Of a stretch of 64,000 nucleotides of DNA, positions 17,966 through 53,831 are shown piece by piece. Position 1 is the first letter of the stretch, and every line of letters begins with the position of its first letter. The stretch spans positions 225,237 through 289,236 of the IMG/VR virus record IMGVR_UViG_3300029288_000059; one strand, given 5' to 3'. The translations under genes were made by a program, and so were the position numbers. A model generated the notes under the pieces. It saw only the letters and a list, made by a program, of their open reading frames with translations. It was not told where the DNA came from and ran no database searches. This stretch comes from a virus (lineage: Duplodnaviria > Heunggongvirae > Uroviricota > Caudoviricetes).

Positions 17966-18385
17966 ATGTACAGAGCACTAGATCCATATCATGTCAATAT
18001 ACGACAATCATCGGGACTTTCAGATGTTTCAGATGGTATTATACGACGGGGTGAAGTTAGTCTCTTCCATTGTGGGTTAACCAAATTACCCATCTTTAAA
18101 TATATAAGTGGTAATCTTGATATTAATAGCAATCTATTAACCAACCTTAACGGCTGTCCTATTTACGTTGGTGGTAATTTATATTGTAGTGATAATCTAT
18201 TATCTAATTTAGATGGTGGGCCACTCTTTGTTTATGGTAATTACTTCTGTGGGCACAATCAATTAATAAGTTGGGATGGTGGGCCCCAGTACGTGAAAGG
18301 TAAATTAATATGTAATAATAATCGTTCCTGGATACTTCACAACCCCACCAATATTTTTATGGGTAAAGGATGTTCAATTGGTTAG
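17966..18385 (+). CDS. LRR-like repeat family protein (MYRALDPYHV...). It lies inside the gap of the fractured terminase gene.
   Basis: It contains 22-aa repeats (LTNLNGCPIYVGGNLYCSDNLLSNLDGGP...). The start was set at the family-type N-terminus at 17966. The longer track ORF, beginning at 17813, overlaps the terminase gene. Confidence 0.55.
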   Translation: MYRALDPYHVNIRQSSGLSDVSDGIIRRGEVSLFHCGLTKLPIFKYISGNLDINSNLLTNLNGCPIYVGGNLYCSDNLLSNLDGGPLFVYGNYFCGHNQLISWDGGPQYVKGKLICNNNRSWILHNPTNIFMGKGCSIG

Positions 18386-18758
18386 AAATTTAGAACCATA
18401 TATTGAACCATATATTGAACCAACTCCTGAATGGAACACAGACGCAATTCATCTGTTTAATGGATTTACTTATGTAATAAAAAGAGGAGGTTATTGTCTT
18501 GGATGGATGAATTTGGGTGAACTTCCTTCGTCTTTCAAATATGTAAGTAAGACATTTAATTGTAGCAATAATCAACTAACAACGTTAAAGGGATGTCCTA
18601 TTTATGTAGGTGGTAATTTCTGGTGTGAACGTAATCAATTAACCAGTTTAAATAATTGTCCTGTTTATATTGGTAACAATTTTATATGTCGAGACAATAC
18701 ATATAAACTCATCCCACCTAAAGAAGTTACTATAATCGGGGAGTTATATAATGATTAG
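18378..18758 (+). CDS. LRR-like repeat family protein (MVRNLEPYIEPYIEP...).
   Basis: It has the family N-terminus and repeats such as NNQLTTLKGCPIYVGGNFWCERNQLTSLNNCPVYIGNNF. An 8-nt overlap links it to the upstream copy. Confidence 0.55.
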   Translation: MVRNLEPYIEPYIEPTPEWNTDAIHLFNGFTYVIKRGGYCLGWMNLGELPSSFKYVSKTFNCSNNQLTTLKGCPIYVGGNFWCERNQLTSLNNCPVYIGNNFICRDNTYKLIPPKEVTIIGELYND

Positions 18759-20717: not shown

Positions 20718-21194
20718 TTATCGATTAAAGAAACAACCACCTATCTTAATTCCTTTAGGACGTGGTAATTTTATTTTATTATCACTACAATATAAACTAC
20801 CACCAACATATATTGGACAACCTTTTAAACTGGTTAGTTGGTTATTCTGACAAATTAAATTTCCACCTATACGGGTAGTACATCCTTTTAGACTGGTTAA
20901 TTGGTTATAACCACAATTTAAACCACCACCTATATAAGTAGCACAACCCTTCAAATTTGTTAATTGGTTATCACCACAAATTAAATCACGACCTATATAT
21001 GTAGGACAACCTTTTAAACTTGTTAATTGGTTATAACTACAATCTAATCCACCACCTATATACTTGAAATGTGGTAACATTAGTAACCCAGTAGATAAAT
21101 CTACATCACCACGTACGATGATATTTCTATTAAATATACGAAAAACATCAGCTCTATATGGTTTATATTCAATTGGTTCCAAAGTCCTATACAT
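20718..21194 (-). CDS. LRR-like repeat family protein (MYRTLEPIEY...), four or five repeats.
   Basis: It contains LDCSYNQLTSLKGCPTYIGRDLICGDNQLTNLKGCATYIGGGLNCGYNQLTSLKGC... Confidence 0.55.
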   Translation of the reverse strand: MYRTLEPIEYKPYRADVFRIFNRNIIVRGDVDLSTGLLMLPHFKYIGGGLDCSYNQLTSLKGCPTYIGRDLICGDNQLTNLKGCATYIGGGLNCGYNQLTSLKGCTTRIGGNLICQNNQLTSLKGCPIYVGGSLYCSDNKIKLPRPKGIKIGGCFFNR

Positions 21195-24027: not shown

Positions 24028-24507
24028 TTAACTACTGAATTTGCCAATAATATTAACCCCATCAGGACGAAGTAATTTTATTTTATTATTCTTACAATAT
24101 AATCTACCACCTATATATGTAGCACAACCATCTAAACTAGTTAATTTGTTATCGTTACAATATAAACCACCACCCACACTAGTAGCACAATATCTTAAAC
24201 TAGTTAATTTGTTATTACCACAATATAAATCACCACCAACATATATAGGACAACCTTCTAAACTTGTTAGTCGGTTATAATGACAATATAAATCACCACC
24301 AACATATATAGGACAACCTTTTAAACTTGTTAATTGTTTGTTACAAATACTTAAGCTATGACTTATATACTTGAAATTTGGTAATGTTTTTAATGGTAAC
24401 ATATCCAAATCTATATCTATATAACCACGTACGATGGTATTTCTATCAGTCAATCTAACAGTTAAATTAGCTTCAACAATGTTATATGGTTCTAAATTCC
24501 TAACCAT
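24028..24507 (-). CDS. LRR-like repeat family protein (MVRNLEPYNIVEANLTV...).
   Basis: Five repeats. The start overlaps the stop of the topoisomerase subunit gene. Confidence 0.55.
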   Translation of the reverse strand: MVRNLEPYNIVEANLTVRLTDRNTIVRGYIDIDLDMLPLKTLPNFKYISHSLSICNKQLTSLKGCPIYVGGDLYCHYNRLTSLEGCPIYVGGDLYCGNNKLTSLRYCATSVGGGLYCNDNKLTSLDGCATYIGGRLYCKNNKIKLLRPDGVNIIGKFSS

Positions 24508-27838: not shown

Positions 27839-28129
27839 CTAGGAGTTCATAAATCCACCCCGAATCTTAACTCTTTTAGGGCGAGATAATTTAACTTTGT
27901 TATTATAACATTTTAAATTACTACCTATATAAGTAGCACAACCTTCTAAACTAGTTAATTGGTTATCAAAACAATATAAATCACCACCTACATACTTGAA
28001 ATGTGGTAACTTGAGTAAATTCATCCTACCATAATAAACATCACCACGTACTATAATATTTCTATCGAATATACGAACGTTACCAACATTATATAATTCA
28101 TATTCAATCGGTTCCAAGGTTCTATACAT
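27839..28129 (-). CDS. LRR-like repeat family protein (MYRTLEPIEYELY...), two repeats.
   Basis: It has the family N-terminus and C-terminus (NKVKLSRPKRVKIRGGF). Confidence 0.55.
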   Translation of the reverse strand: MYRTLEPIEYELYNVGNVRIFDRNIIVRGDVYYGRMNLLKLPHFKYVGGDLYCFDNQLTSLEGCATYIGSNLKCYNNKVKLSRPKRVKIRGGFMNS

Positions 28130-28532
28130 TTATAAATTCACCACCTATCTTAACTCCTTTAGGACGAGATAATTTAACTTTGTTACCATAACAATATAAA
28201 CTATCACCTATATATGTAGCACACCCATCTAAACTGGTTAATTGATTATACCTACAATATAAAGTACTACCTATATAAGTAGGACAATATTCTAAACTTG
28301 TTAGGCAATTACGGTCACAAACTAACCTACCTACATATATAGGGCAACCTTTTAAACTCGTTAGTTTGTTATTACGACAATTAAAATACCTACCTACATA
28401 CTTGAAATGAGGTAACGTGGTTAGTTTCCTGTTAAATAAATCTACATTGCCCCTAGTAATTATATTGCTATCAGTCAATCTAACAGTTAAATTAGATTTA
28501 ACAATGTTATATGGTTCTAAATTTCTATTCAT
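28122..28532 (-). CDS. LRR-like repeat family protein (MNRNLEPYNIVKSNLTV...).
   Basis: Four repeats. An 8-nt overlap links it to its neighbours. Confidence 0.55.
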   Translation of the reverse strand: MNRNLEPYNIVKSNLTVRLTDSNIITRGNVDLFNRKLTTLPHFKYVGRYFNCRNNKLTSLKGCPIYVGRLVCDRNCLTSLEYCPTYIGSTLYCRYNQLTSLDGCATYIGDSLYCYGNKVKLSRPKGVKIGGEFINV

Positions 28533-29193
28533 TTATAAATTCACCCCGAATCTTAATTCCTTTAGGACGCGATAATTTAAGGTTGCTGTGATTACAATCT
28601 AGATAACCACCTATACTAGTAGCACATCCTTCTAAATTTGTTAATTGGTTATAACGACAATATAAATCACCATTTATACGGACAGGACAACCCTTTAAAC
28701 TGGTTAATTGGTTATAACTACAATCAAAAACTCCACCTATACTAGTAGCACAACCCTTTAAACTTGTTAATTGATTATGACTACAATCTAGATTACCACC
28801 TATACTAGTAGCACAATATTTTAAACTAGTTAGTTGGTTATTATAACAATATAAACCACCACCTATATATGTAGCACAACCCTTTAAACTAGTTAATTGG
28901 TTATTACCACAATCTAACCTACCACCTATATAAGTAGCACAACACTCTAAACTTGTTAAATGGTTCTTATTACACCATAAATAACCACCTATATATGTAG
29001 GACATCCTTCTAAACTTGTTAATTGGTTAAAACTACAATCGAAATCGCCACTTACATACTTGAAATGAGGTAATGTATGTAGGTTACTGTCAGATAAACG
29101 TGCATTACCTCTTATAATAATATTATTATAAGTAGACTGAATCCTAATGCACCAATCATCATTCGTATTATAGGGTTCTAAACTACGATACAT
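28525..29193 (-). CDS. LRR-like repeat family protein (MYRSLEPYNT...), eight repeats. It is the longest copy.
   Basis: It contains tandem xxNQLTSLKGCATxIGGxLxCxx repeats. Confidence 0.55.
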   Translation of the reverse strand: MYRSLEPYNTNDDWCIRIQSTYNNIIIRGNARLSDSNLHTLPHFKYVSGDFDCSFNQLTSLEGCPTYIGGYLWCNKNHLTSLECCATYIGGRLDCGNNQLTSLKGCATYIGGGLYCYNNQLTSLKYCATSIGGNLDCSHNQLTSLKGCATSIGGVFDCSYNQLTSLKGCPVRINGDLYCRYNQLTNLEGCATSIGGYLDCNHSNLKLSRPKGIKIRGEFINE

Positions 29194-29217
29194 CTAAATA
29201 TCCTCAAACAAATTTGC

Positions 29218-29246
29218 GACATATACAATTTCCCCATACTTGACAA
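29218..29246 (-). promoter_or_regulatory. Promoter-like element, a paralogous copy of the 27786-27814 element, upstream of the LRR gene cluster.
   Basis: The reverse complement reads TTGTCAAGTATGGGGAAATTGTATATGTC...AATTTGTTTGAGGATATTTAGATG. Confidence 0.3.
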
Positions 29247-29248
29247 AT

Positions 29249-29713
29249 CTAACTTATAATGTACCCAATTTTACTCCACTCAAACAATAAATGTCTTAAC
29301 ATTATAACGGTTCGAACTACAATATTATGAATTGTATCAAATATGGGAGTGATGTAATGACTACTTCCGAATTCTAACCCATTTATAATTACATTCTTAG
29401 GTAGTTCTAATATGAGAGTATTGCACAAATATATAAAATTACCACCCACATATATAGGACAACCCTTTAAACTCATTAGTTGATTCCAACCACAATTAAA
29501 ATGTCCACCTACATACAATGGGCATCCTTTTAAACTAGTTAAATTACGATGTCTGCATATTAAATCTTTAGTTATATACTTAAAATTAGGCAACTTATTA
29601 ATAAGTAACTCAAAACCACCCCTACATATAATATTATTGGTGAAATAGTGCCAATCACCAAACTCTGGATTGACATATTGTTCCATATTATATGGTTCTA
29701 ATTTTCGATACAT
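29249..29713 (-). CDS. LRR-like repeat family protein (MYRKLEPYNMEQY...) with a divergent C-terminus.
   Basis: It carries the family N-terminus and two or three repeats. Confidence 0.5.
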   Translation of the reverse strand: MYRKLEPYNMEQYVNPEFGDWHYFTNNIICRGGFELLINKLPNFKYITKDLICRHRNLTSLKGCPLYVGGHFNCGWNQLMSLKGCPIYVGGNFIYLCNTLILELPKNVIINGLEFGSSHYITPIFDTIHNIVVRTVIMLRHLLFEWSKIGYIIS

Positions 29714-29742: not shown

Positions 29743-30075
29743 TTACTCATCCAAAAATACTTGTGCGGACTTCAACTCAGGCTGATTAAATATATCATCA
29801 ATACGCCCCTCACTATCAGTAACTTTTATCTTGTCTTCACAATCGGAACATAATCCAACTTTACCAAAAAATAATAGTTTCCCACATCTATCACAAACGT
29901 GGTCATTTAATGTTCGTTCTAATAATGATAGGAATAATGTTCGTTCATAGATTGACATTACTTGTATGTTATCTATAGAACTTCTAATTAATTCATTCGT
30001 AGAACGTCTGTGAGGTTCATCACTTTCTTCCTTAAACATATTATTAGATGTAAAGTCGATATTACGGGTTACCAT
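29743..30075 (-). CDS. Zinc-ribbon protein (CDRCGKLLFFGKVGLCSDCE).
   Basis: A CxxC...CxxC pattern is present. Confidence 0.4.
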   Translation of the reverse strand: MVTRNIDFTSNNMFKEESDEPHRRSTNELIRSSIDNIQVMSIYERTLFLSLLERTLNDHVCDRCGKLLFFGKVGLCSDCEDKIKVTDSEGRIDDIFNQPELKSAQVFLDE

Positions 30076-30851
30076 TTAATGACCGTCCGTATCTTATCAA
30101 AGAAACTACGTTTATTAACCTTATCTCTAATACTCTGTGATTCATTAATAGCGGTACGTATATCCGAACGGGCATCTAAAAACGCATCGACCTTATATCC
30201 GTTCAATTTATCCCGAAGTTCATCCAATGTAAGATTAACTTTAATTTCTTGTACTGGATTCTGATTAGTATGTTGTTTGAAGTTAGTAATAAACTTATCT
30301 AATGTTAAATCACAATACTCATCCGCCCAATCACCCAAGTAATATAATCGTTCGTATAATTCAGTTGAGTTGGTTCTTATAAAGGCACCAAACAAAATTG
30401 GGTCTTTTTCACGAAGTTCCCTTTTAACTTGACGTTCGACTTTACCCGTATAATCAGTAAAGAGAACATAGTAGTTATCGAATATTCCTTTTGTCTTTGT
30501 AATTGTATCTACTAATTCATCAGGAATCTCTCTTGGATAACGATTAAGTTCGATAATTTTAACTTCTTTATTTCCAATATGATTTATATACATCGTGATG
30601 TCATCGGAGTATACATATTTTGTAATACCCATTTCTAATAACTTATATTCACGTTCTATACATTCAATGAAGAATGTCTTCATCTTTATTAGTTGTTCGG
30701 TTTGCCCTGTCTTATAGGCTTTATCCGCCAAATAGTTAATATTCTGTAATATATCATTTAACTTATAATCCGACATTTCTTCTGTCTTGCTTTTGACATA
30801 ATCAAAATAAGTTAAAGGGTCAATTGTTTCATTATCTAACTTCGTTACCAT
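30069..30851 (-). CDS. Hypothetical protein, 260 aa.
   Basis: Long ORF. It overlaps the downstream gene by 7 nt. Confidence 0.45.
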   Translation of the reverse strand: MVTKLDNETIDPLTYFDYVKSKTEEMSDYKLNDILQNINYLADKAYKTGQTEQLIKMKTFFIECIEREYKLLEMGITKYVYSDDITMYINHIGNKEVKIIELNRYPREIPDELVDTITKTKGIFDNYYVLFTDYTGKVERQVKRELREKDPILFGAFIRTNSTELYERLYYLGDWADEYCDLTLDKFITNFKQHTNQNPVQEIKVNLTLDELRDKLNGYKVDAFLDARSDIRTAINESQSIRDKVNKRSFFDKIRTVIKW

Positions 30852-30925
30852 AATAGTTTCCTTTCGTTATGAACTCGTTGAATTATATGTGACTTAATTA
30901 TAATTGTCAAACCGTAAAATAATCG

Positions 30926-30953
30926 TTGACATTTATATATAATATGTTATACT
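30926..30953 (+). promoter_or_regulatory. Early sigma70-type promoter cassette (TTGACA-N16-TATACT followed by TAAATTATAAACA).
   Basis: One of six near-identical copies. AGGAG and ATG follow at 30989. Confidence 0.6.
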
Positions 30954-30988
30954 TAAATTATAAACAACACAAACAAGGAGAGAAAACA

Positions 30989-31246
30989 ATGTTAAGTAAA
31001 TCAGATGCAAAATTGTTAAAGAAAGAGAAATTCGTTGTTACTACTAATAACGATTTAATTACAGCAGTACATACTGCCCCTGCAAGTACAGGACTTCCAC
31101 CATATGTAATAAAAGAAAGAAAAGAAAATAATAAATCAGTATATGATAGTTATTTTGCGTTTCATACAGAGACCAACGATAATAGTATAATCACGTATGA
31201 TACAATTAAACAATGTATTCCCGAAGTTAATGAGTACGATGATTAA
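30989..31246 (+). CDS. Small early protein, 85 aa.
   Basis: The RBS is AAGGAGAGAAAACAATG, downstream of the promoter cassette. The longer track ORF beginning at 30926 merely translates the promoter. Confidence 0.5.
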   Translation: MLSKSDAKLLKKEKFVVTTNNDLITAVHTAPASTGLPPYVIKERKENNKSVYDSYFAFHTETNDNSIITYDTIKQCIPEVNEYDD

Positions 31247-31254
31247 GTTAAATA

Positions 31255-31288
31255 AAATAGTGGGAGTTTTTAATTCCCACTATTTTTA
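31255..31288. terminator. Bidirectional rho-independent terminator (stem AAATAGTGGGA with its reverse complement TCCCACTATTT, loop GTTTTTAAT). It is an exact copy of 43223-43256.
   Basis: An 11-bp stem is flanked by A and T runs, between convergent genes. Confidence 0.7.
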
Positions 31289-31292
31289 TGAC

Positions 31293-32681
31293 TTACTTCT
31301 TAGTTTTAGGTTGAGTTACGTCTAATACTTTAGACATAACCTGTTGTCCAACATCCGTATTAACGAATGATTCCAACATAGCACCCATCTTTTGTCCACC
31401 GTTAGTAGAAAACAAATCCATTACCTTTGTTATTCCTTCTGTTGGCGTACCCGTATTTGATATTACTTTAACGTTTGCATTACTTAATGCTTTAGCTTGT
31501 TCGATACCAACTATCTCATCAGCTTCGATTTGACGTATACTAACCAAGTATTGTTGATATCCAACGTTCGTACCAATCTCATTCGCCAATGTAATTTGAG
31601 TAGTTACTGGTACTAATTGAATAGCACGTTCGGCATCTGCTTGTGCTAAACCAGTAACAGTAATGGCTTTAGCTTCTAATTCTTTTGATGTTAAAGAACC
31701 TTCAGCTACAATGATGGAAGATTGTTTATTACTTTCCGCATTAATAATTGCAGTTTGTTTGTTACCATCCGCCATAATAATGGAAGTCTGTTTAGCTTTT
31801 TCTGCATTAATAATTGAAACTTGTTTCTCAATTTCGGCAGAACGTTCGTTTTGTACTTTAATAACTTCCATTTCTTTATTTTTAGTAATGGCAGATTGTA
31901 CAATAATATCTTGTTGTGCTTGTTCTTTAGCAACGCCAATAGCCTTATTCTTTGCCGTCTCACGTACTTTAACAGTTTCTTCCGATAACTGCTTTTGCAT
32001 ATCTACATCTTGTGATGCAGATACTTCCGCTATTTGGGCGGCTTTAAGATTTGAGGCAACCGTAACGCGACTATCCATCTCGATATGTGATTTACGTTTT
32101 TCCATAATATTATGGATTACTTTACCATTTGGAACGTCACGTATATCCATTAATTCAATTGCCTTAACTGGTATAACGCCCCAAGATTTTAATTGTTCTT
32201 CAACTTCTTTGGTGAACTGTTGACCAAATTTAGAACGTTCAACCATAATTGAATTAATTTCATGTGCCGCCAATACAGTACGAATACTGCCTTGTACGAT
32301 AGAATGCAATTGTTGTAATAGTTCATTAAATGAACCAATACGTTGAGCTGCCAAATTAGTATCCGTAATTCTAAAGAATGCAATTACATCAACTACAAAC
32401 GGAACTCGTCCCTCATCGTATGCTTCATAATCAGCTAGTTTAACATCAAATACTGATACTGGTAATATAACTTTCGTTACGCCTATAATTGGAATCCAAC
32501 TAGGCCATTCATAATAAACATTCCCATTAGGCGTATCTTTGCCGTATGAAGTTGTTTCTTTACCCGATTGTACAATATGTACTTCATTTGATGATACTAC
32601 TCGTCGTAACATCATCATAGAAATAATCGTTAAAATAGCAATCACTGCTAATGGTGCAACCCACATCGTCATAGTAATCAT
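31293..32681 (-). CDS. SPFH/Band-7 (flotillin/YqiK-like) membrane protein.
   Basis: An N-terminal TM helix is followed by an SPFH core (FDVKLADYEAYDEGRVPFVVDVIAFFRITD) and C-terminal flotillin-like repeats (QVSIINAEKAKQTSIIMADGNKQTAIINAESNKQSSIIVAEG). Confidence 0.75.
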   Translation of the reverse strand: MITMTMWVAPLAVIAILTIISMMMLRRVVSSNEVHIVQSGKETTSYGKDTPNGNVYYEWPSWIPIIGVTKVILPVSVFDVKLADYEAYDEGRVPFVVDVIAFFRITDTNLAAQRIGSFNELLQQLHSIVQGSIRTVLAAHEINSIMVERSKFGQQFTKEVEEQLKSWGVIPVKAIELMDIRDVPNGKVIHNIMEKRKSHIEMDSRVTVASNLKAAQIAEVSASQDVDMQKQLSEETVKVRETAKNKAIGVAKEQAQQDIIVQSAITKNKEMEVIKVQNERSAEIEKQVSIINAEKAKQTSIIMADGNKQTAIINAESNKQSSIIVAEGSLTSKELEAKAITVTGLAQADAERAIQLVPVTTQITLANEIGTNVGYQQYLVSIRQIEADEIVGIEQAKALSNANVKVISNTGTPTEGITKVMDLFSTNGGQKMGAMLESFVNTDVGQQVMSKVLDVTQPKTKK

Positions 32682-32694
32682 AGTATATCTCCTG

Positions 32695-33513
32695 TTAAGA
32701 TTGTTTTATAAACCGACCACGTGCATCACGTTTAGGTTTAACTTTAGATTTAACATTACCTTTTTCACTAGTAACAACCAGTTTAGATAATGTATCAAAC
32801 GTCTGTCCACCAATATGTTCCATTAAAACTTCATACTGGCAACAACGACCTTTAGCATTATTATAATCTTTAGGAATTGATACAACATCCCGTGGATTAA
32901 TTTTAATAATGATAACTTTATAATCTGTTTCATTATTAGTACCGTAGTTTGGTAAGTATTCTAATGAAGCGAAATGTAATCCCGTTGAGCAAGTAGCTTC
33001 TCTATCATCGTCAACAAATGACCGTTTCATCTTTGGTTTTAAACCAATACTATTATCAACAGAATTAGTATAGATATCCTTAAAATTGGAAGTAACTTTC
33101 TTGTAGGCAAGAAAATATCCATCAGAAGTTATAGGTAAATTATTTTGTTCCAAGAACAAGTATAATTCATCAATGGCACGTTTAGATGGATTAGTTAATA
33201 AGTTCGTTAAAAACTTAATCATTGGTTCAACATCGAACTCATCATTCATCATTTTAATAATTCGTTTGGTTAATGCGTTATTAACCTTTTCCTTATCAAA
33301 ATAGAATTCACCATCAATCAATTTAATCTTTCCATTAGCAAATGTTTGGATTGATTGTTTGATATTATGTAATGACGTAATTTCACACTCACTTAGTGAG
33401 TCTAACCCCTTTTTCACTTTATTGAAGTTAGGATGATTCTTACCGAATAACAATGGTGCTCCATTACAGAATACCATAATAGAATCATCTTTAATTATAT
33501 ACGCTTTTGTCAT
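32695..33513 (-). CDS. rIIB: rIIB lysis-inhibition and anti-exclusion protein.
   Basis: The segment FLTNLLTNPSKRAIDELYLFLEQNNLPITSDGYFLAYKKV...DDDREATCSTGLH...PRDVVSIPKDYNNAKGRCCQYEV closely matches T4 rIIB. Confidence 0.85.
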   Translation of the reverse strand: MTKAYIIKDDSIMVFCNGAPLLFGKNHPNFNKVKKGLDSLSECEITSLHNIKQSIQTFANGKIKLIDGEFYFDKEKVNNALTKRIIKMMNDEFDVEPMIKFLTNLLTNPSKRAIDELYLFLEQNNLPITSDGYFLAYKKVTSNFKDIYTNSVDNSIGLKPKMKRSFVDDDREATCSTGLHFASLEYLPNYGTNNETDYKVIIIKINPRDVVSIPKDYNNAKGRCCQYEVLMEHIGGQTFDTLSKLVVTSEKGNVKSKVKPKRDARGRFIKQS

Positions 33514-35670
33514 TTACTTAACTCCTCTTTCATATCTCACGTTGCACATATTAATAATATCAGTAAAGTTTTCTAAGTCCGGTGGGGTACTATAACGACT
33601 GAAGTTAATATTTTCAAATAACTTATATCGTTTTTTGAGTAATTCACCCCGTTCATGCCACAAATCATATAACTTCTTTATTGTATTGGACGTATCCAAT
33701 ACTTCGAGTTGTTTGTGATAGTATTGTATAGAACTACGTTTTACGGCATATTGCTGTGATTTAAAAAATTGCTTCAACAAAGGGTCCTTTATAGTATCTA
33801 ATACGTGTTCATATTCGGGTGTTAACTTCTCAAACCAACAACATGAGGATAATGTACTAAATCCATAATGATTACAAACTGCTTCCCGATGCGTACTTAA
33901 CAACACACTGGGTAACTTAATATACGCTGCAATTTCGGCATCAAGAATAGTATTAATATCAATCCATTTATCGACATCATCTAACTTTTTAAACTTTTGA
34001 AAATTAGTTTTGGCAATTCCTAATGAATTAGTTAAAAGTTTATACAAGTTAGACGACGTATCTATATAACGAATAATACTCATTAACGTGGATAATTTAC
34101 TATATTCATCCGTCAATCTACTACCAATAGTCAAATAATAATAACCACCACCCTCAATCTTATTTTTAACAGCAAACGCATTAGTAACTCTATTAATTTT
34201 ACCTTGGTAAAAACTATATAATGATAATTCGGACGGGTTAACAGAAGTTCGTTCTTTGCGTTGACGTATTGCAGTTGTTATCGACTTATACTCGTCTAAA
34301 TCTTGTGCCATAGTAAACTGATATGGGGCTATTAATTTTCTTACTTCATCCACGTCAGTATGTTCTGTGGCAAGTATCATATAAGTTAATTTGTCATACG
34401 CTCGTAATGTACTAATTAACTTTACTTTATGTTTGAGTTTCTCTTCTATATATACAAAACGAGGTAATGTGTCGTAATGACATAATGTGAGTCCGACATC
34501 GTATACATCCCATGAAAATTCAGCTAAAGGTTTACTACTATCTCTTTTGAGATTAGAACGCCAAAATGTAGTTGAACATGGTGTTAAATCAATACGTTTA
34601 TTAATTAGTAATGAACACCGTTGATATACTGTTTTATCAACTAAATCGACATAGTATCTCAAACTCGTACGTTTTATTGCTACGAGTGATTCAATCTTTT
34701 CAATAGTAGGTTTATTACTATTCAATATGTCAGATAACATATTGGTAAAGTAATCTTTCATTTCGGTAATCGAGTATAGGATACTATTAACAGTTACATT
34801 ATTATAAATTAATTCCTCTCTACTTGGTTGAGGTATAACATCACCCAATTCAAGATTTAATACGGTACGATAACTACCAAATATTGAATCATATGCTGTT
34901 TGGACAACTGTACTAGGATTATGAAATGTTGCTTCTTTAATTTGTTCATTTGATGTGTCAATGGAGTACAGAACACCACCCATCAATGCGTATAATCCTT
35001 TTTCACCATAACAACCACGATATATGGAAAATGTAGGAGTAGATAATATTACCTCTTCGCGTTCAATATATACATCAGTTCCAATAAACTTCGGTACTTT
35101 CAACCATTTGTATATACTACGTGCATGAATTCTAAATGCTTCAAATTTATCGGTTGGTATAGTTATTTTAACCCCATTACGTTCATTTGTAGGAGTAGTT
35201 GCTAAATGAGTTAAACAAGGAACTCCGTTATTTAAGAACGCCGTATATAGATAATATTCACCATTAAAGTATGATTCAATGGTATACTGTGATACTATTG
35301 AGAATGGAGTTTTACAGCCCAAACCATAAGCACCAATTTGTTTATTATCATTCGTCTTTGTGGAGTTAAAAAACTGGGTATATACAGTTTCAATCGTTTC
35401 TCGTGACATACCAGTACCATAGTCGCGGATGTAGAACCAAGGTTCCATCATTACGGGTAAATGTACATCGTAATCAAGTTCCTGTGTACCCGCGACGATA
35501 TGCGCGTCTATCGCATTACAAGATAATTCACGTAATACCGCCAATACACCATCTTTATATAATCTAGTTGATAATACACTGAATGCAAAATCACTAGACT
35601 CGATTGAGAACTGTTTTATGTCGTCAATCCCTGATGTTTCTAATACATCATCGGCTTGTGCAATCTCCAT
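33514..35670 (-). CDS. rIIA: rIIA protein (N-terminal GHKL-type ATPase-like domain).
   Basis: It is 718 aa and sits immediately upstream of rIIB. GHKL-like motifs (LRELSCNAIDAH, IRDYGTGMS) are present. Confidence 0.85.
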   Translation of the reverse strand: MEIAQADDVLETSGIDDIKQFSIESSDFAFSVLSTRLYKDGVLAVLRELSCNAIDAHIVAGTQELDYDVHLPVMMEPWFYIRDYGTGMSRETIETVYTQFFNSTKTNDNKQIGAYGLGCKTPFSIVSQYTIESYFNGEYYLYTAFLNNGVPCLTHLATTPTNERNGVKITIPTDKFEAFRIHARSIYKWLKVPKFIGTDVYIEREEVILSTPTFSIYRGCYGEKGLYALMGGVLYSIDTSNEQIKEATFHNPSTVVQTAYDSIFGSYRTVLNLELGDVIPQPSREELIYNNVTVNSILYSITEMKDYFTNMLSDILNSNKPTIEKIESLVAIKRTSLRYYVDLVDKTVYQRCSLLINKRIDLTPCSTTFWRSNLKRDSSKPLAEFSWDVYDVGLTLCHYDTLPRFVYIEEKLKHKVKLISTLRAYDKLTYMILATEHTDVDEVRKLIAPYQFTMAQDLDEYKSITTAIRQRKERTSVNPSELSLYSFYQGKINRVTNAFAVKNKIEGGGYYYLTIGSRLTDEYSKLSTLMSIIRYIDTSSNLYKLLTNSLGIAKTNFQKFKKLDDVDKWIDINTILDAEIAAYIKLPSVLLSTHREAVCNHYGFSTLSSCCWFEKLTPEYEHVLDTIKDPLLKQFFKSQQYAVKRSSIQYYHKQLEVLDTSNTIKKLYDLWHERGELLKKRYKLFENINFSRYSTPPDLENFTDIINMCNVRYERGVK

Positions 35671-35746: not shown

Positions 35747-36013
35747 TTATTTTGTCGTACGAGGGATAACTTTAATACCTAACATGGGTAATGTCTCATT
35801 ACCTATCATATTAAGTGTTATTTCGAATACTTTCTGTTCGATATATTGAAAATCGGAATGAAATAAAACAACACTACCTTCTAATTTTAAGAGATTAAAT
35901 TTTTCTTCCATAACGCCATGTGACATCACGTTAGCAAACAACCGATTGAATGTTGTTCGTGTTATAGAACTTCTATTTAATATTAAGGTGAACTGTTTAT
36001 ATCTCTTTTTCAT
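35747..36013 (-). CDS. Hypothetical small protein.
   Basis: ORF of 88 aa. Confidence 0.4.
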   Translation of the reverse strand: MKKRYKQFTLILNRSSITRTTFNRLFANVMSHGVMEEKFNLLKLEGSVVLFHSDFQYIEQKVFEITLNMIGNETLPMLGIKVIPRTTK

Positions 36014-36096
36014 ATCATCAACAAAAAAATTAAACTAACTATAATATATTTAGTTTTTTAGATTTTGTTAATTTTGTTGATTTTATGTTCAAAAAA

Positions 36097-36120
36097 AGAC
36101 CCTGTATTTTTACAGGGTCT
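36097..36120. terminator. Stem-loop (AGACCCTGTA-TTTT-TACAGGGTCT) with an A-run upstream. It works as a terminator mainly on the minus strand.
   Basis: A 10-bp GC-containing stem. A T-run follows only on the minus strand. Confidence 0.4.
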
Positions 36121-37403: not shown

Positions 37404-37733
37404 CTATGATTGAGGGATGATATTTAGACGTGAATTACCTGCACTCCACGAAAATATCTCACCCACATACAAAGGACGATATCTTAAATATATTAATAGA
37501 TTATACGTACAATTAAAACTACATCCGACATACATTGGACTTCCTTTGAGACTCGTTAGATGATTATTAGAACAATCAAAATCACCATCTACATACTTAT
37601 AATGAGGTAACTTCTTTAGACATAAATCATTTAAATTTACATCACCCCTAGTGATTATATTGACATCCTCAAATCGGGCTATACAACGACAATAACTATT
37701 ATTAATATATGGGTTCAAGTCCCTATACATCAT
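37404..37733 (-). CDS. LRR-like repeat family protein (MMYRDLNPYINN...), partly degenerate.
   Basis: It contains DCSNNHLTSLKGSPMYVGCSFNC. Confidence 0.45.
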   Translation of the reverse strand: MMYRDLNPYINNSYCRCIARFEDVNIITRGDVNLNDLCLKKLPHYKYVDGDFDCSNNHLTSLKGSPMYVGCSFNCTYNLLIYLRYRPLYVGEIFSWSAGNSRLNIIPQS

Positions 37734-53100: not shown

Positions 53101-53210
53101 AATAACTTATCTTGTTCGGTACATAATACAATTAAAGGAATAGTAGATGAACCACCTTCCGTTGTTGTAGTTTCGTCTGTTACCGTAATTTTTACATTAG
53201 GTGCGCTCAT
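50121..53210 (-). CDS. Tail sheath protein, gp18 family.
   Basis: Two regions match T4 gp18: the C-terminal ...ISPGISINYIYIPMRL (T4 has QPARSINYITLNFV), and GIVIFGDKSLS...ENVGRLVCYIRRRLE (T4 has GYVLYGDKTAT...FDRINVRRLFNML). It is 1029 aa. Confidence 0.8.
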   Translation of the reverse strand: MSAPNVKITVTDETTTTEGGSSTIPLIVLCTEQDKLLSDGTVAEGTTKANSNTLMVVSGQKDSITKFGTAIFQTENSTIKQGDELNEYGLHALHSYLGLASTAYVIRGDIDLKQLKASATEPSSNVSNGTYWFDETNTSYGIFRANGNSTPGLAWDEATVVIPTTSDLTSNVPNASFGSNSNVALVVVSNVLKLYEKISGSWYLIGSNEWSDAKPTVITGTASATYSSGSVISINGIAVTLSTGTNVASAVTDINTASILNIVASNSGGALKITNPDGGNIVLADVSGTALTSLGLTEGTTSGVQLFCAEHYNIPVGTTVGSIWLKTTDVNSGVNYVVKQYSTEASQWKILTTPLYKGAIEAEINYGTALSLDSLFVQYDGSASPIANLYILKHSTNGAFTVTGTTTNPTVSIGNTIGITVAVNGVVTTTNVPFTGTSLNSVINDIEDANISGLVVAQSNGAIQFQRADGTAIRFSNVAGTPLSSLGISAGEYSNWTILDTTYSISAPVNPPVNDTLWYNTDYLVDIMVNDGNEWKSLKNNNTNIDPVGVQLTSSIPTTQSDGTPLVNGDLWIDTDDLENYPALYRYSTSSTSWESINKTDQTSPFGIVFADARSNSGPSYTNSTHTAFSTKADDLIISNYVDPDAPDPRVYASGTLLFNTRYSTQNVKKYNSNYFTPTTSTFTVGSSATFAYPGTANNPVVSRWINASGNAEDGSAYMNRKAQRAMVVKAMSAVITNNEDIRSLYYQMDLLAAPGYVELFDELVELQIDRKQQSFAITETPCRLKPDATAITKWANNYYEASSNGEVGRVTRNDYSSMCYLWGLGTDTSGNNVMIPPSTMKLRTIAYSDSVSYPWKSAAGVRRGIVSNASSVGYLTDEGEYKAVALRSGLQDTLYDLSINPIITSPDSGIVIFGDKSLSTSTSALSRENVGRLVCYIRRRLEKIVEPYYFEINNKRTRDNVKAAIDSFMVDLIQKEAIYDYVVQVDTTNNTSARIQKNELWIDLAISPGISINYIYIPMRLTTSTTNS

Positions 53211-53333: not shown

Positions 53334-53831
53334 ATGTCTAATAATAATTTTGTTAAATTACTTGAATCAAATTTGGAAAAATCCGAAATTGTATTAGCAG
53401 TTCAAAACATTGCAGATGAAATACAAAAGATGATTAAAAAATTAGGTGAAATTAAACTAGAAAACATCTCACCATTATCAGATAGAATTAAAGCGGTATA
53501 TGGTGTTAAGAGTGCCGAACAATTTACATCTTCTATATCAACTAATCTTGCTCAAGCCATCGAACAGTTATCATCAGTACGTGAAGAGATTAATACTAAA
53601 TCATTAGTATTATCGGGTGACGTTGCCGAATCAGATATGGAATCAGATTTAACTGAGCCAAGAGAAGATGAACATACAGATACTATACAACCAGAAGATA
53701 GAATTAGAAAAGAATCATTAGCCTATATATTAGATGGTAAAAAATACAAACGTTTATTTGAAACTGTTGATGAGATGAATCATTTTATTCTAAAGAACAA
53801 AATCACTAAATTTGTTGTAATAAAGGATTAA
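53334..53831 (+). CDS. Hypothetical acidic protein.
   Basis: ORF of 165 aa. Confidence 0.45.
   Translation: MSNNNFVKLLESNLEKSEIVLAVQNIADEIQKMIKKLGEIKLENISPLSDRIKAVYGVKSAEQFTSSISTNLAQAIEQLSSVREEINTKSLVLSGDVAESDMESDLTEPREDEHTDTIQPEDRIRKESLAYILDGKKYKRLFETVDEMNHFILKNKITKFVVIKD

What the first reader, a model, noticed from the sequence alone, without database searches (positions are those of the whole stretch)
31293..35670. Flotillin/SPFH membrane scaffold protein encoded next to rIIB-rIIA
A 462-aa SPFH/Band-7 protein has an N-terminal TM helix and flotillin-type repeats. It lies immediately downstream of the rIIA-rIIB pair, which are membrane-associated factors that counter prophage-encoded exclusion.

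SPFH proteins are common in bacterial defence islands. A phage-borne flotillin adjacent to rII suggests a joint membrane-integrity or anti-abortive-infection function.
Basis: partly seen in the sequence, partly recalled or inferred. Interest (0 to 1): 0.6.

Follow-up and report, generated by a model that had tools for sequence, protein, structure and literature searches.

The report
Phage flotillin-like gene beside rII
An uncultured jumbo phage carries an intact, selectively maintained flotillin-like membrane-scaffold gene directly after its rIIA-rIIB genes, but this pairing is seen only in this phage's own lineage, so it is weak evidence for a shared function.

Summary
On the minus strand lie rIIA (33514-35670, 718 aa), rIIB (32695-33513, 272 aa) and a 462-aa SPFH/Band-7 protein (31293-32681). 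The SPFH protein has an N-terminal membrane helix and a predicted helix of about 180 residues holding 11-residue repeats. The three genes are packed 0 and 13 nt apart. They end in a strong terminator hairpin and have no T4-type late promoter, so they are probably one pre-late transcript.

The proposed joint rII/anti-abortive-infection function is not supported by comparison:
- The only close relative (87% nt identity) keeps the order, and the gene is under purifying selection (dN/dS 0.05).
- None of 43 other phage loci with this SPFH family has rII next to it; two have it 5-8 kb away.
- One complete T5-like phage genome carries the gene and has no detectable rII.
- None of the 80 closest rIIB loci has an SPFH gene within 7 kb.
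- The slot after rIIB is hypervariable.

The family is also a stable chromosomal gene in many Proteobacteria and Bdellovibrionota. It matches no model of a known defence system.

Best reading: a mobile, cellular-type flotillin-like scaffold gene that landed in a variable slot. Its function in phages is unknown, and such phage genes are already annotated.

The parts
33514..35670 (-). rIIA homologue, 718 aa, with an N-terminal GHKL/HATPase-like domain
   Evidence: PHROG 612 E 2.9e-102 over residues 1-710. Pfam HATPase_c_3 1.8e-6. tblastn hits to annotated rIIA genes of T4-like and jumbo phages at 30-36% identity.
32695..33513 (-). rIIB homologue, 272 aa; its start abuts the rIIA stop (0 nt gap)
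   Evidence: PHROG 609 E 3.1e-74. PF26926 Phage_T4_rIIB on the identical product. 2348 homologues found.
31293..32681 (-). Flotillin-like SPFH/Band-7 membrane protein, 462 aa; starts 13 nt after the rIIB stop, behind an AGGAG ribosome-binding site
   Evidence: Pfam Band_7 E 2e-14. Family of at least 2353 homologues at about 55% identity. Fold matches to flotillin, stomatin, prohibitin, HflK/C and QmcA. dN/dS 0.05 against the close relative.
32613..32678 (-). Codons for the N-terminal membrane helix (residues 2-23), followed by the invariant L-R and near-invariant R
   Evidence: AlphaFold helix 2-23. Alignment A1 shows a hydrophobic, uncharged or acidic N-terminus followed by LRR. The positive-inside rule therefore places the SPFH body in the cytoplasm (inference).
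32055..32600 (-). SPFH/Band-7 domain (residues 28-209)
   Evidence: Pfam match coordinates. pLDDT 80-91 across this part.
31710..31794 (-). 33-nt tandem repeat, 2.6 copies, encoding 11-residue repeats (AEKAKQTSIIM / ADGNKQTAIIN / AESNKQSSIIV) inside the long helix
   Evidence: Tandem Repeats Finder, period 33, score 100. Homologues differ by 11- and 22-residue gaps here (A1 columns about 320-342). This stretch aligns to the QmcA repeat region.
31246..31286 (-). Intrinsic-terminator-like hairpin (12-bp stem, 9-nt loop, then a U-rich tract) starting 7 nt after the SPFH stop; it also faces the convergent plus-strand ORF
   Evidence: RNA fold -17 kcal/mol, z -4.68, 0 of 200 shuffles as stable. Sequence. 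The scanner missed it because its loop limit is 8. A near copy lies at 43218-43254.
35747..36013 (-). 88-aa ORF of unknown function just upstream of rIIA, possibly the first gene of the same transcription unit
   Evidence: ORF list. No Pfam or PHROG match.
36043..36120 (-). Terminator-like hairpin (36120-36097), then a sigma-70-like site (36071-36043, 10 of 12 matches), marking the likely upstream boundary of the unit
   Evidence: Consensus scan. Promoter-like sites are not enriched over shuffles, so the promoter assignment is tentative.

Best explanation
The 462-aa gene encodes a genuine, functional flotillin-like SPFH membrane scaffold of a cellular type. This family moves horizontally between bacteria and large virulent phages. 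In this phage lineage it sits in the hypervariable slot directly after rIIB and is probably transcribed before the late phase on the rIIA-rIIB message.

**Inferred mechanism, by analogy with solved SPFH assemblies**
- The N-terminal helix anchors the protein in the host inner membrane, with the body in the cytoplasm.
- The SPFH domains sit on the membrane.
- The helix of about 180 residues packs with neighbouring copies into a large homo-oligomeric dome that fences off a membrane patch.
- The phage would use this to stabilise or partition the host membrane during infection.

The protein acts on its own. Being next to rII reflects where the gene landed, not a dedicated rII-SPFH machine.

**Shown:** gene identity, fold, purifying selection, operon-like packing, and lack of conserved linkage. 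**Inferred:** topology, oligomeric dome, and the membrane-stabilising role.
For: **Identity and fold**
- Band_7 domain.
- Flotillin complex is the top fold hit, followed by stomatin, prohibitin, HflK/C and QmcA.
- Family profile hits QmcA at 5e-12 and flotillin-1 at 7e-10.

**Functional gene**
- dN/dS is 0.05 over 326 codons and 0.20 over the N-terminal 82 codons against the 87-92% identical relative.

**Cellular-type, mobile family**
- 294 species-level bacterial genomes carry it.
- It sits in a syntenic pdxS-pdxT-SPFH-thrC context in 7-9 alphaproteobacterial genomes.
- It occurs in 52 phage records from Xanthomonas, Vibrio (T5-like), Brevundimonas and Ralstonia phages and in 41 IMG/VR contigs.
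- The window protein is about 55-57% identical to both bacterial and phage copies.

**No dedicated partner**
- No neighbour is shared by more than 6 of 43 phage loci.
- rII is never adjacent; only L020 (8 kb away) and L040 (weak match, 5-7 kb away) have it within 10 kb.
- Vibrio phage Cody has the SPFH gene and no detectable rII.
- None of 80 rIIB loci has an SPFH gene within 7 kb.
- The first ORF after rIIB falls into 44 clusters among 74 loci.

**Pre-late co-transcription**
- Gaps of 0 and 13 nt, a terminator after the SPFH gene, and no late promoter motif in the unit.
Against: - The close relative conserves the tight rIIA-rIIB-SPFH packing. Co-expression with two membrane-associated proteins could reflect a real local partnership that evolved only in this lineage.
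- No intermediate relatives exist in the databases: rIIB identity drops from 94% to 53%. The age of the linkage therefore cannot be measured.
- The membrane-stabilising role is analogy only. No experiment on any phage SPFH protein was found.
- Oligomerisation and topology were not modelled.
Confidence: 0.55

Rival explanations
1. rIIA, rIIB and the SPFH protein form one functional membrane module. The scaffold would recruit or organise the rII proteins at the inner membrane to block membrane-depolarising abortive-infection effectors of the RexAB type, or to control lysis timing.
For: - Operon-like packing and a shared terminator.
- The order is kept in the close relative, under purifying selection.
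- The rII locus protects T4 from RexAB, and its mechanism is still poorly understood (PMC8594841).
- Both L020 and L040 have rII in the same gene cluster as the SPFH gene, within 5-8 kb.
Against: - Adjacency is found in 0 of 43 other SPFH phage loci and 0 of 80 rIIB loci.
- The SPFH family is present in a complete phage genome without rII and in hundreds of bacteria without rII.
- The slot after rIIB is hypervariable.
- No PADLOC or anti-defence annotation applies.
Confidence: 0.15
2. The protein works like HflK/C or QmcA. Its cage encloses or regulates a host membrane protease such as FtsH, or other membrane-protein quality control. This would protect phage membrane proteins or change host membrane proteostasis.
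For: - The best sequence match among solved structures is E. coli QmcA (E 1.6e-12; profile 5e-12).
- The fold matches HflK/C-FtsH complexes (7vhq, 9cz2, 7wi3).
- It is established that HflK/C cages FtsH and that QmcA pairs with the NfeD protein YbbJ (descriptions of those PDB entries).
Against: - No NfeD-type partner or protease gene lies next to it in the phage, in other phage loci or in bacterial loci.
- The architecture, with its much longer helix, is closer to flotillin than to HflK/C or QmcA.
- HflK/C faces the periplasm, whereas the inferred topology here is cytoplasmic.
Confidence: 0.15
3. The protein is a superinfection-exclusion or entry-blocking factor. It would alter the inner membrane so that later-arriving phages cannot deliver their DNA.
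For: - It is a probably pre-late membrane protein of a lytic phage.
- In the Vi01-like phage PhiSH19, a different and shorter SPFH gene lies directly beside a gene annotated as a superinfection exclusion protein (PMC3220722).
- The authors of one phage paper guess at a role in adsorption or DNA entry (PMC13239085).
Against: - There is no experimental evidence.
- Conservation at about 50-57% identity between phage copies and chromosomal bacterial copies in housekeeping contexts fits a general cellular membrane function better than a phage-specific exclusion device.
Confidence: 0.1
4. The gene is a decaying passenger with no function, or the ORF is a chance product.
For: - It has no PHROG, NCBIfam or PADLOC family.
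- A related contig (L045) starts the gene at residue 137.
Against: - dN/dS is 0.05.
- The full-length protein is about 55% identical to thousands of homologues, with 120 invariant columns.
- The L045 truncation coincides with a jump to high-GC sequence that matches nothing in the window. It is most likely an assembly chimera.
Confidence: 0.02

Closest known systems
Eukaryotic flotillin-1/2 (PDB 9bq2, 9l3g) and bacterial flotillin-like proteins
   Same: It has an SPFH domain followed by a very long helix and a helical C-terminal part, and its overall length is about 420-470 residues. It is the top fold match over about 440 aligned columns and a profile hit across residues 78-356. JGI pipelines label homologues 'flotillin'.
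   Different: Identity is only 16-21%. Pfam's flotillin C-terminal model is not matched. The protein is anchored by a true N-terminal transmembrane helix rather than by acylation or a hairpin. Its 11-residue AEG/NKQ repeats resemble QmcA more than the flotillin Ala-Glu repeats.
E. coli QmcA (PDB 8z5g) and stomatin-type SPFH proteins
   Same: It is the best sequence match among solved structures. Both the SPFH domain and the 'AEGxxQxxI' repeat helix align. QmcA also has an N-terminal membrane helix and a cytoplasmic body.
   Different: QmcA is 305 aa and works with the NfeD partner YbbJ. The phage protein is 462 aa with a much longer helix, and no NfeD gene is nearby.
Homologues already deposited in phage genomes (Xanthomonas phages X1 and BUDD, Vibrio Thalassavirus phages such as Cody, Brevundimonas jumbo phages, Ralstonia RP13)
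   Same: They belong to the same family at 43-53% identity over 94-98% of the length. They are annotated 'SPFH domain-containing protein', 'flotillin' or 'hypothetical protein'.
   Different: In these phages the gene lies among tRNA genes, small early ORFs or auxiliary genes, not next to rII. Cody has no detectable rII at all.
Other virus-encoded SPFH/Band-7 proteins (T4-like 44RR, Aeh1, RB43; Vi01-like phages; giant viruses)
   Same: These are virus-borne SPFH-domain membrane proteins of unknown function, noted since 2006 (PMC1524935; PMC3220722; BFVD hits).
   Different: They are shorter (about 260-340 aa) and belong to different subfamilies. None was found by tblastn with this protein at E<=1e-5.
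T4 rIIA-rIIB locus
   Same: The gene order is rIIA then rIIB on one strand, with abutting genes. The locus lies near the topoisomerase genes.
   Different: From general knowledge of the T4 map, T4 has small ORFs, denB and ndd after rIIB. Here an SPFH gene fills that position.

Membership tests
SPFH / Band-7 superfamily | SPFH (Band 7) alpha/beta domain | tested here: met
   Pfam PF01145 E 2e-14, 54.5 bits against a cutoff of 23.6. Foldseek hits to stomatin SPFH domains with TM-score 0.8-0.9 normalised to the target.
SPFH / Band-7 superfamily | Membrane anchor at the N-terminus | tested here: met
   Hydrophobic residues 2-23 are modelled as a helix and are conserved as a hydrophobic segment in all 27 aligned homologues.
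SPFH / Band-7 superfamily | Long C-terminal helix that builds the wall of a homo-oligomeric cage | tested here: inconclusive
   A single helix at 188-371 is predicted, with pLDDT falling from 90 to about 50. Oligomerisation could not be modelled with the tools available.
Flotillin family (sensu stricto) | Flotillin C-terminal domain recognised by the curated Pfam flotillin model | tested here: not met
   Only Band_7 is reported, even at E<=10.
Flotillin family (sensu stricto) | Full-length similarity to solved flotillin chains | tested here: met
   Profile hit to flotillin-1 at E 7.2e-10 over residues 78-356. Foldseek rank 1, E 8.6e-13, 436 columns, 20% identity.
SPFH-NfeD two-gene operon (QmcA-YbbJ, YqiK-YqiJ type) | Adjacent NfeD-family membrane protein gene | tested here: not met
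   The flanking ORFs have no NfeD or other Pfam match. No conserved neighbour was found in 43 phage loci or 83 bacterial loci.
rIIA | Full-length match to the rIIA family, with an N-terminal GHKL-type ATPase-like domain | tested here: met
   PHROG 612 E 2.9e-102, residues 1-710 against profile positions 1-723. HATPase_c_3 1.8e-6.
rIIB | Match to the rIIB family, located directly downstream of rIIA | tested here: met
   PHROG 609 E 3.1e-74. PF26926. 0-nt gap to rIIA.
rIIA/rIIB | Protects the phage from prophage-encoded exclusion (RexAB-type), or gives a rapid-lysis phenotype when mutated | not testable with these tools
   The phage is uncultured and the host unknown. The function is known only for T4 (PMC8594841).
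Known anti-phage defence or candidate defence proteins (PADLOC-DB) | Match to a model of a defence-system component | tested here: not met
   No PADLOC family at E<=0.01 for the SPFH protein, rIIA, rIIB or the 260-aa neighbour.

The most novel reading that the evidence does not exclude
In this jumbo-phage lineage the flotillin-like scaffold has been recruited as a third component of the rII system. It would build a membrane platform on which rIIA/rIIB counter membrane-targeting abortive-infection effectors or set lysis timing. If so, it would give a structural handle on the still unexplained mechanism of rII.
Probability: 0.12. Interest if true: 0.7.

Novelty: new member of a known kind. Interest (0 to 1): 0.3.

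Why it matters
The mechanism of rIIA/rIIB is still unknown after seventy years, so a real third partner would be valuable. The data here argue that the SPFH gene is not that partner in general.

What remains of interest:
- This is a sharply delimited, highly conserved flotillin-like family. It has 164 clusters (50% identity) at E<=1e-30, and about 50-57% identity across phyla and between bacteria and phages.
- Many unrelated large lytic phages have acquired it and keep it under selection.
- No function has been tested for it in any phage.

Cultured carriers such as the Vibrio Thalassavirus phages and Xanthomonas phage X1 make the question directly testable. The window phage itself is uncultured.

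Tried and rejected
**Searches that gave nothing**
- Megablast of the locus against cultured phages found no match.
- Back-translated single-protein scans of IMG/VR with the SPFH protein found nothing. With rIIB they found one distant locus. Alignment-based scans were needed instead.
- The PHROG, NCBIfam and PADLOC libraries have no family for the SPFH protein.
- Literature searches for a function of phage SPFH or flotillin, or for a link to defence islands, gave only passing mentions in genome annotations.

**Lines of evidence set aside**
- Contig L045 seemed to show a truncated SPFH gene without rIIB upstream. I rejected it as evidence because its first 702 bases are high-GC sequence that matches nothing in the window, so it is most likely an assembly chimera.
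- I tried to define the promoter of the unit by sigma-70 consensus. Promoter-like sites are not enriched over shuffles, so only the terminators and the absence of the late motif are used. A TTGACT-18-TATAAC site at 35732-35703 was read by eye and is not relied on.
- A nearest-neighbour analysis to find the donor of the gene showed the window protein about equally distant from bacterial and phage copies. No donor or host can be named.


Full report
**1. What is in the window**

The region 31293-35670 holds three minus-strand ORFs.

- The 718-aa product (33514-35670) aligns end to end with PHROG 612 'RIIA lysis inhibitor' (E 2.9e-102). It carries the N-terminal GHKL-type ATPase-like domain (Pfam HATPase_c_3, 1.8e-6).
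- The 272-aa product (32695-33513) matches PHROG 609 'RIIB' (E 3.1e-74). The identical protein carries PF26926 Phage_T4_rIIB in the precomputed annotation.
- The 462-aa product (31293-32681) matches Pfam Band_7/SPFH over residues 28-209 (E 2e-14, well above the gathering score).

The window belongs to a 272-kb metagenomic contig (ENA ERZ27247363). The phage has 31% GC. Its tail sheath is about 41% identical to those of Atu_ph07 and PA5oct-like jumbo phages. It has no near relative among cultured phages.

**2. Anatomy of the SPFH protein**

An AlphaFold model built on 27 homologues (pLDDT 72) shows four parts:

- a helix over the hydrophobic N-terminus (residues 2-23);
- an alpha/beta SPFH domain (26-182, pLDDT 80-91);
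- one uninterrupted helix from 188 to 371;
- shorter C-terminal helices.

The family alignment shows an uncharged or acidic N-terminal tail. It is followed by the hydrophobic segment and then the invariant Leu-Arg and near-invariant Arg. By the positive-inside rule, the body of the protein should therefore be cytoplasmic. This is an inference.

Within the long helix lies a 33-nt tandem repeat of 2.6 copies (31710-31794). It encodes 11-residue units. Homologues differ here by clean 11- or 22-residue gaps, so the helix length is variable.

By sequence, the closest solved structure is E. coli QmcA, followed by stomatins. A family profile also reaches flotillin-1 (E 7e-10) and flotillin-2. By fold, the flotillin complex ranks first over about 440 columns, followed by stomatin, prohibitin, HflK/C, QmcA and erlin.

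Pfam's flotillin C-terminal model is not matched. 'Flotillin-like SPFH protein' is therefore a fair description, but strict flotillin membership is not shown.

**3. Transcription context**

- rIIB starts at the base after the rIIA stop. The SPFH gene starts 13 nt after the rIIB stop, behind an AGGAG site.
- Seven bases after the SPFH stop lies a 12-bp hairpin with a U-rich tail (-17 kcal/mol, z -4.7). It also faces a convergent plus-strand ORF.
- Upstream, a terminator-like hairpin (36120-36097) precedes an 88-aa ORF and rIIA.
- The T4 late-promoter motif TATAAATA occurs 11 times in the window. One copy lies 48 nt upstream of the tail-sheath gene. None lies between 5451 and 39645.

The three genes therefore look like one pre-late transcription unit. 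The promoter itself cannot be assigned, because sigma-70-like matches are no more frequent than in shuffled sequence.

**4. Is the rII-SPFH linkage conserved?**

*Close relative.* Contig L048 comes from another metagenome and is 87% identical in DNA. It has rIIA (C-terminal part), rIIB and the first 83 codons of the SPFH gene in the same order. Between the two phages the SPFH gene shows dN/dS of 0.05 over 326 codons and 0.20 over the N-terminal 82 codons. This is similar to rIIB (0.06) and lower than the rIIA C-terminal part (0.25). The gene is functional in this lineage.

*Beyond that lineage, the linkage disappears.*

From the SPFH side:
- I examined 43 phage loci carrying the family: 41 IMG/VR contigs with +/-10 kb flanks, plus Xanthomonas phage X1 and Vibrio phage Cody. 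rII is never adjacent.
- An rIIB profile and tblastn find rII only in L020 (8 kb away, with about 20 small ORFs between) and weakly in L040 (5-7 kb away).
- Xanthomonas phage PhiXhv-12 shows no rII within 20 kb.
- The complete genome of the T5-like Vibrio phage Cody has the SPFH gene among its tRNA genes. It has no detectable rIIA or rIIB.
- No other gene is a conserved neighbour either. The most widespread neighbour cluster occurs in 6 of 43 loci. The neighbours are ordinary early or auxiliary genes such as clamp, clamp loader, ligases, NAMPT and macro-domain proteins. These labels were read from the sequences and not scanned against family libraries.

From the rII side:
- The next-closest rIIB genes (53% and 48% identity) are followed by unrelated ORFs.
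- None of the 80 best rIIB loci in IMG/VR has an SPFH-domain ORF within 7 kb, at E<=1 with the family profile. Of these, 72 have at least 1.5 kb of sequence downstream.
- The first ORF after rIIB falls into 44 different sequence clusters among 74 loci. This position is a variable slot.

**5. Where the family lives**

- The protein has at least 2353 homologues, the best at about 55% identity.
- It has 164 clusters (50% identity) at E<=1e-30 in a library of 1.84 billion representatives.
- It is found in 294 species-level bacterial genomes. These include Alphaproteobacteria (among them Micavibrio), Bdellovibrionota, Lysobacterales (Arenimonas, Lysobacter) and Methylophilaceae, and they include isolate genomes.
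- In one group of Alphaproteobacteria it sits in a conserved pdxS-pdxT-SPFH-thrC neighbourhood. In another genome it lies between FecR-domain and OGG genes. These are chromosomal housekeeping contexts, not prophages or defence islands, and no rII is nearby.
- No NfeD partner is present in any context examined.
- The window protein is equally distant (55-57%) from the bacterial and phage copies, so neither donor nor host can be named.

The family is thus a cellular-type membrane protein that has repeatedly entered large virulent phages.

**6. What is already known**

- SPFH ORFs have been listed in T4-like phages since 2006 (44RR, Aeh1, RB43; PMC1524935).
- They are also listed in Vi01-like phages (PMC3220722), in other phages where authors say the role is unclear (PMC13239085), and in Xanthomonas phage X1 (PMC13384950). 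X1 carries a member of this same family.
- BFVD lists many Band-7 proteins in phages and giant viruses.
- I found no experimental work on any of them. I also found no literature linking SPFH proteins to defence islands, and there is no PADLOC match.
- rIIA/rIIB protect T4 from RexAB and remain poorly understood (PMC8594841).

**7. Interpretation**

The best-supported reading is an autonomous, horizontally mobile flotillin-like scaffold gene placed in the variable slot after rIIB and co-transcribed with it.

Its likely action, by analogy with solved SPFH assemblies, is to form a membrane-anchored homo-oligomeric dome on the cytoplasmic face of the host inner membrane. The dome would stabilise or partition the membrane during infection. 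That mechanism is inferred, not shown.

I give it about 0.12-0.15. Other rivals are regulation of a host membrane protease in the manner of HflK/C or QmcA, and superinfection exclusion. A dead passenger gene is refuted by the selection data.

**8. Verdict**

The identity calls are right, but the functional inference is weak. This is a new member of an already annotated kind of phage gene. Interest is modest (0.3). It comes mainly from the fact that a widespread, strongly conserved phage-borne flotillin-like family still has no tested function.

Noticed in passing
window 17966-18755 (+), 20730-21194, 24037-24507, 27845-29713, 37422-37730, 38027-38329, 39653-40000 (all -): A paralogous gene family of at least 11 short ORFs, found in 9 intervals by tblastn. 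They share an N-terminal 'M.R.LEPY' motif and 'NQLTSL(E/K)GC.TYIGG' leucine-rich-type repeats (Pfam LRR_4 2.3e-10 for 28525-29193). Several copies flank the rII-SPFH unit.
   Followed up: partly
window 30923-31246 (+ strand ORF 30926/30944-31246): A small plus-strand ORF of about 100 aa, convergent with the SPFH gene. It sits between the terminator hairpin and two back-to-back near-perfect sigma-70 promoters (30910-30882 with 12 of 12 matches on the minus strand; 30926-30953 with 11 of 12 on the plus strand). It is absent from the 92%-identical relative L045, so it is an insertion or deletion of a self-contained gene. It has no family match.
   Followed up: partly
window 30069-30851 (-): A 260-aa protein matches PHROG 10081, labelled 'transposase' (E 9.4e-69), but has no Pfam, NCBIfam or PADLOC match. 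It is conserved in relative L045. The label looks doubtful.
   Followed up: no
window 31244-31286 and 43218-43254: The terminator hairpin after the SPFH gene has a near copy 12 kb away, matched through the L045 contig at 91-95% identity. This suggests a reused terminator cassette.
   Followed up: no
window 656, 5451, 39645, 50057, 53258, 53295, 60756, 60767, 62970, 62991, 63997: Eleven copies of the T4 late-promoter motif TATAAATA. Several lie just upstream of ORF starts, for example 48 nt before the tail-sheath gene at 53210 and before the ORFs starting at 53334, 60703, 63030 and 640. This suggests the phage uses T4-type late transcription.
   Followed up: partly
L045 1-702: The JGI contig that carries the 97%-identical partial SPFH gene switches abruptly to high-GC sequence that matches nothing in the window. 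It is most likely an assembly chimera. The '317-aa flotillin' called on it is a truncation artefact.
   Followed up: yes
L058 19649-19948 (Xanthomonas phage PhiXhv-12) and phage 44RR ORF097c/098c: In PhiXhv-12 the gene directly upstream of the SPFH gene is annotated 'type IV pilus subunit'. In the T4-like phage 44RR, an ORF with an N-terminal methylation (pilin-type) motif has the number next to the SPFH ORF. This may be a recurring pilin-like/SPFH pairing.
   Followed up: no
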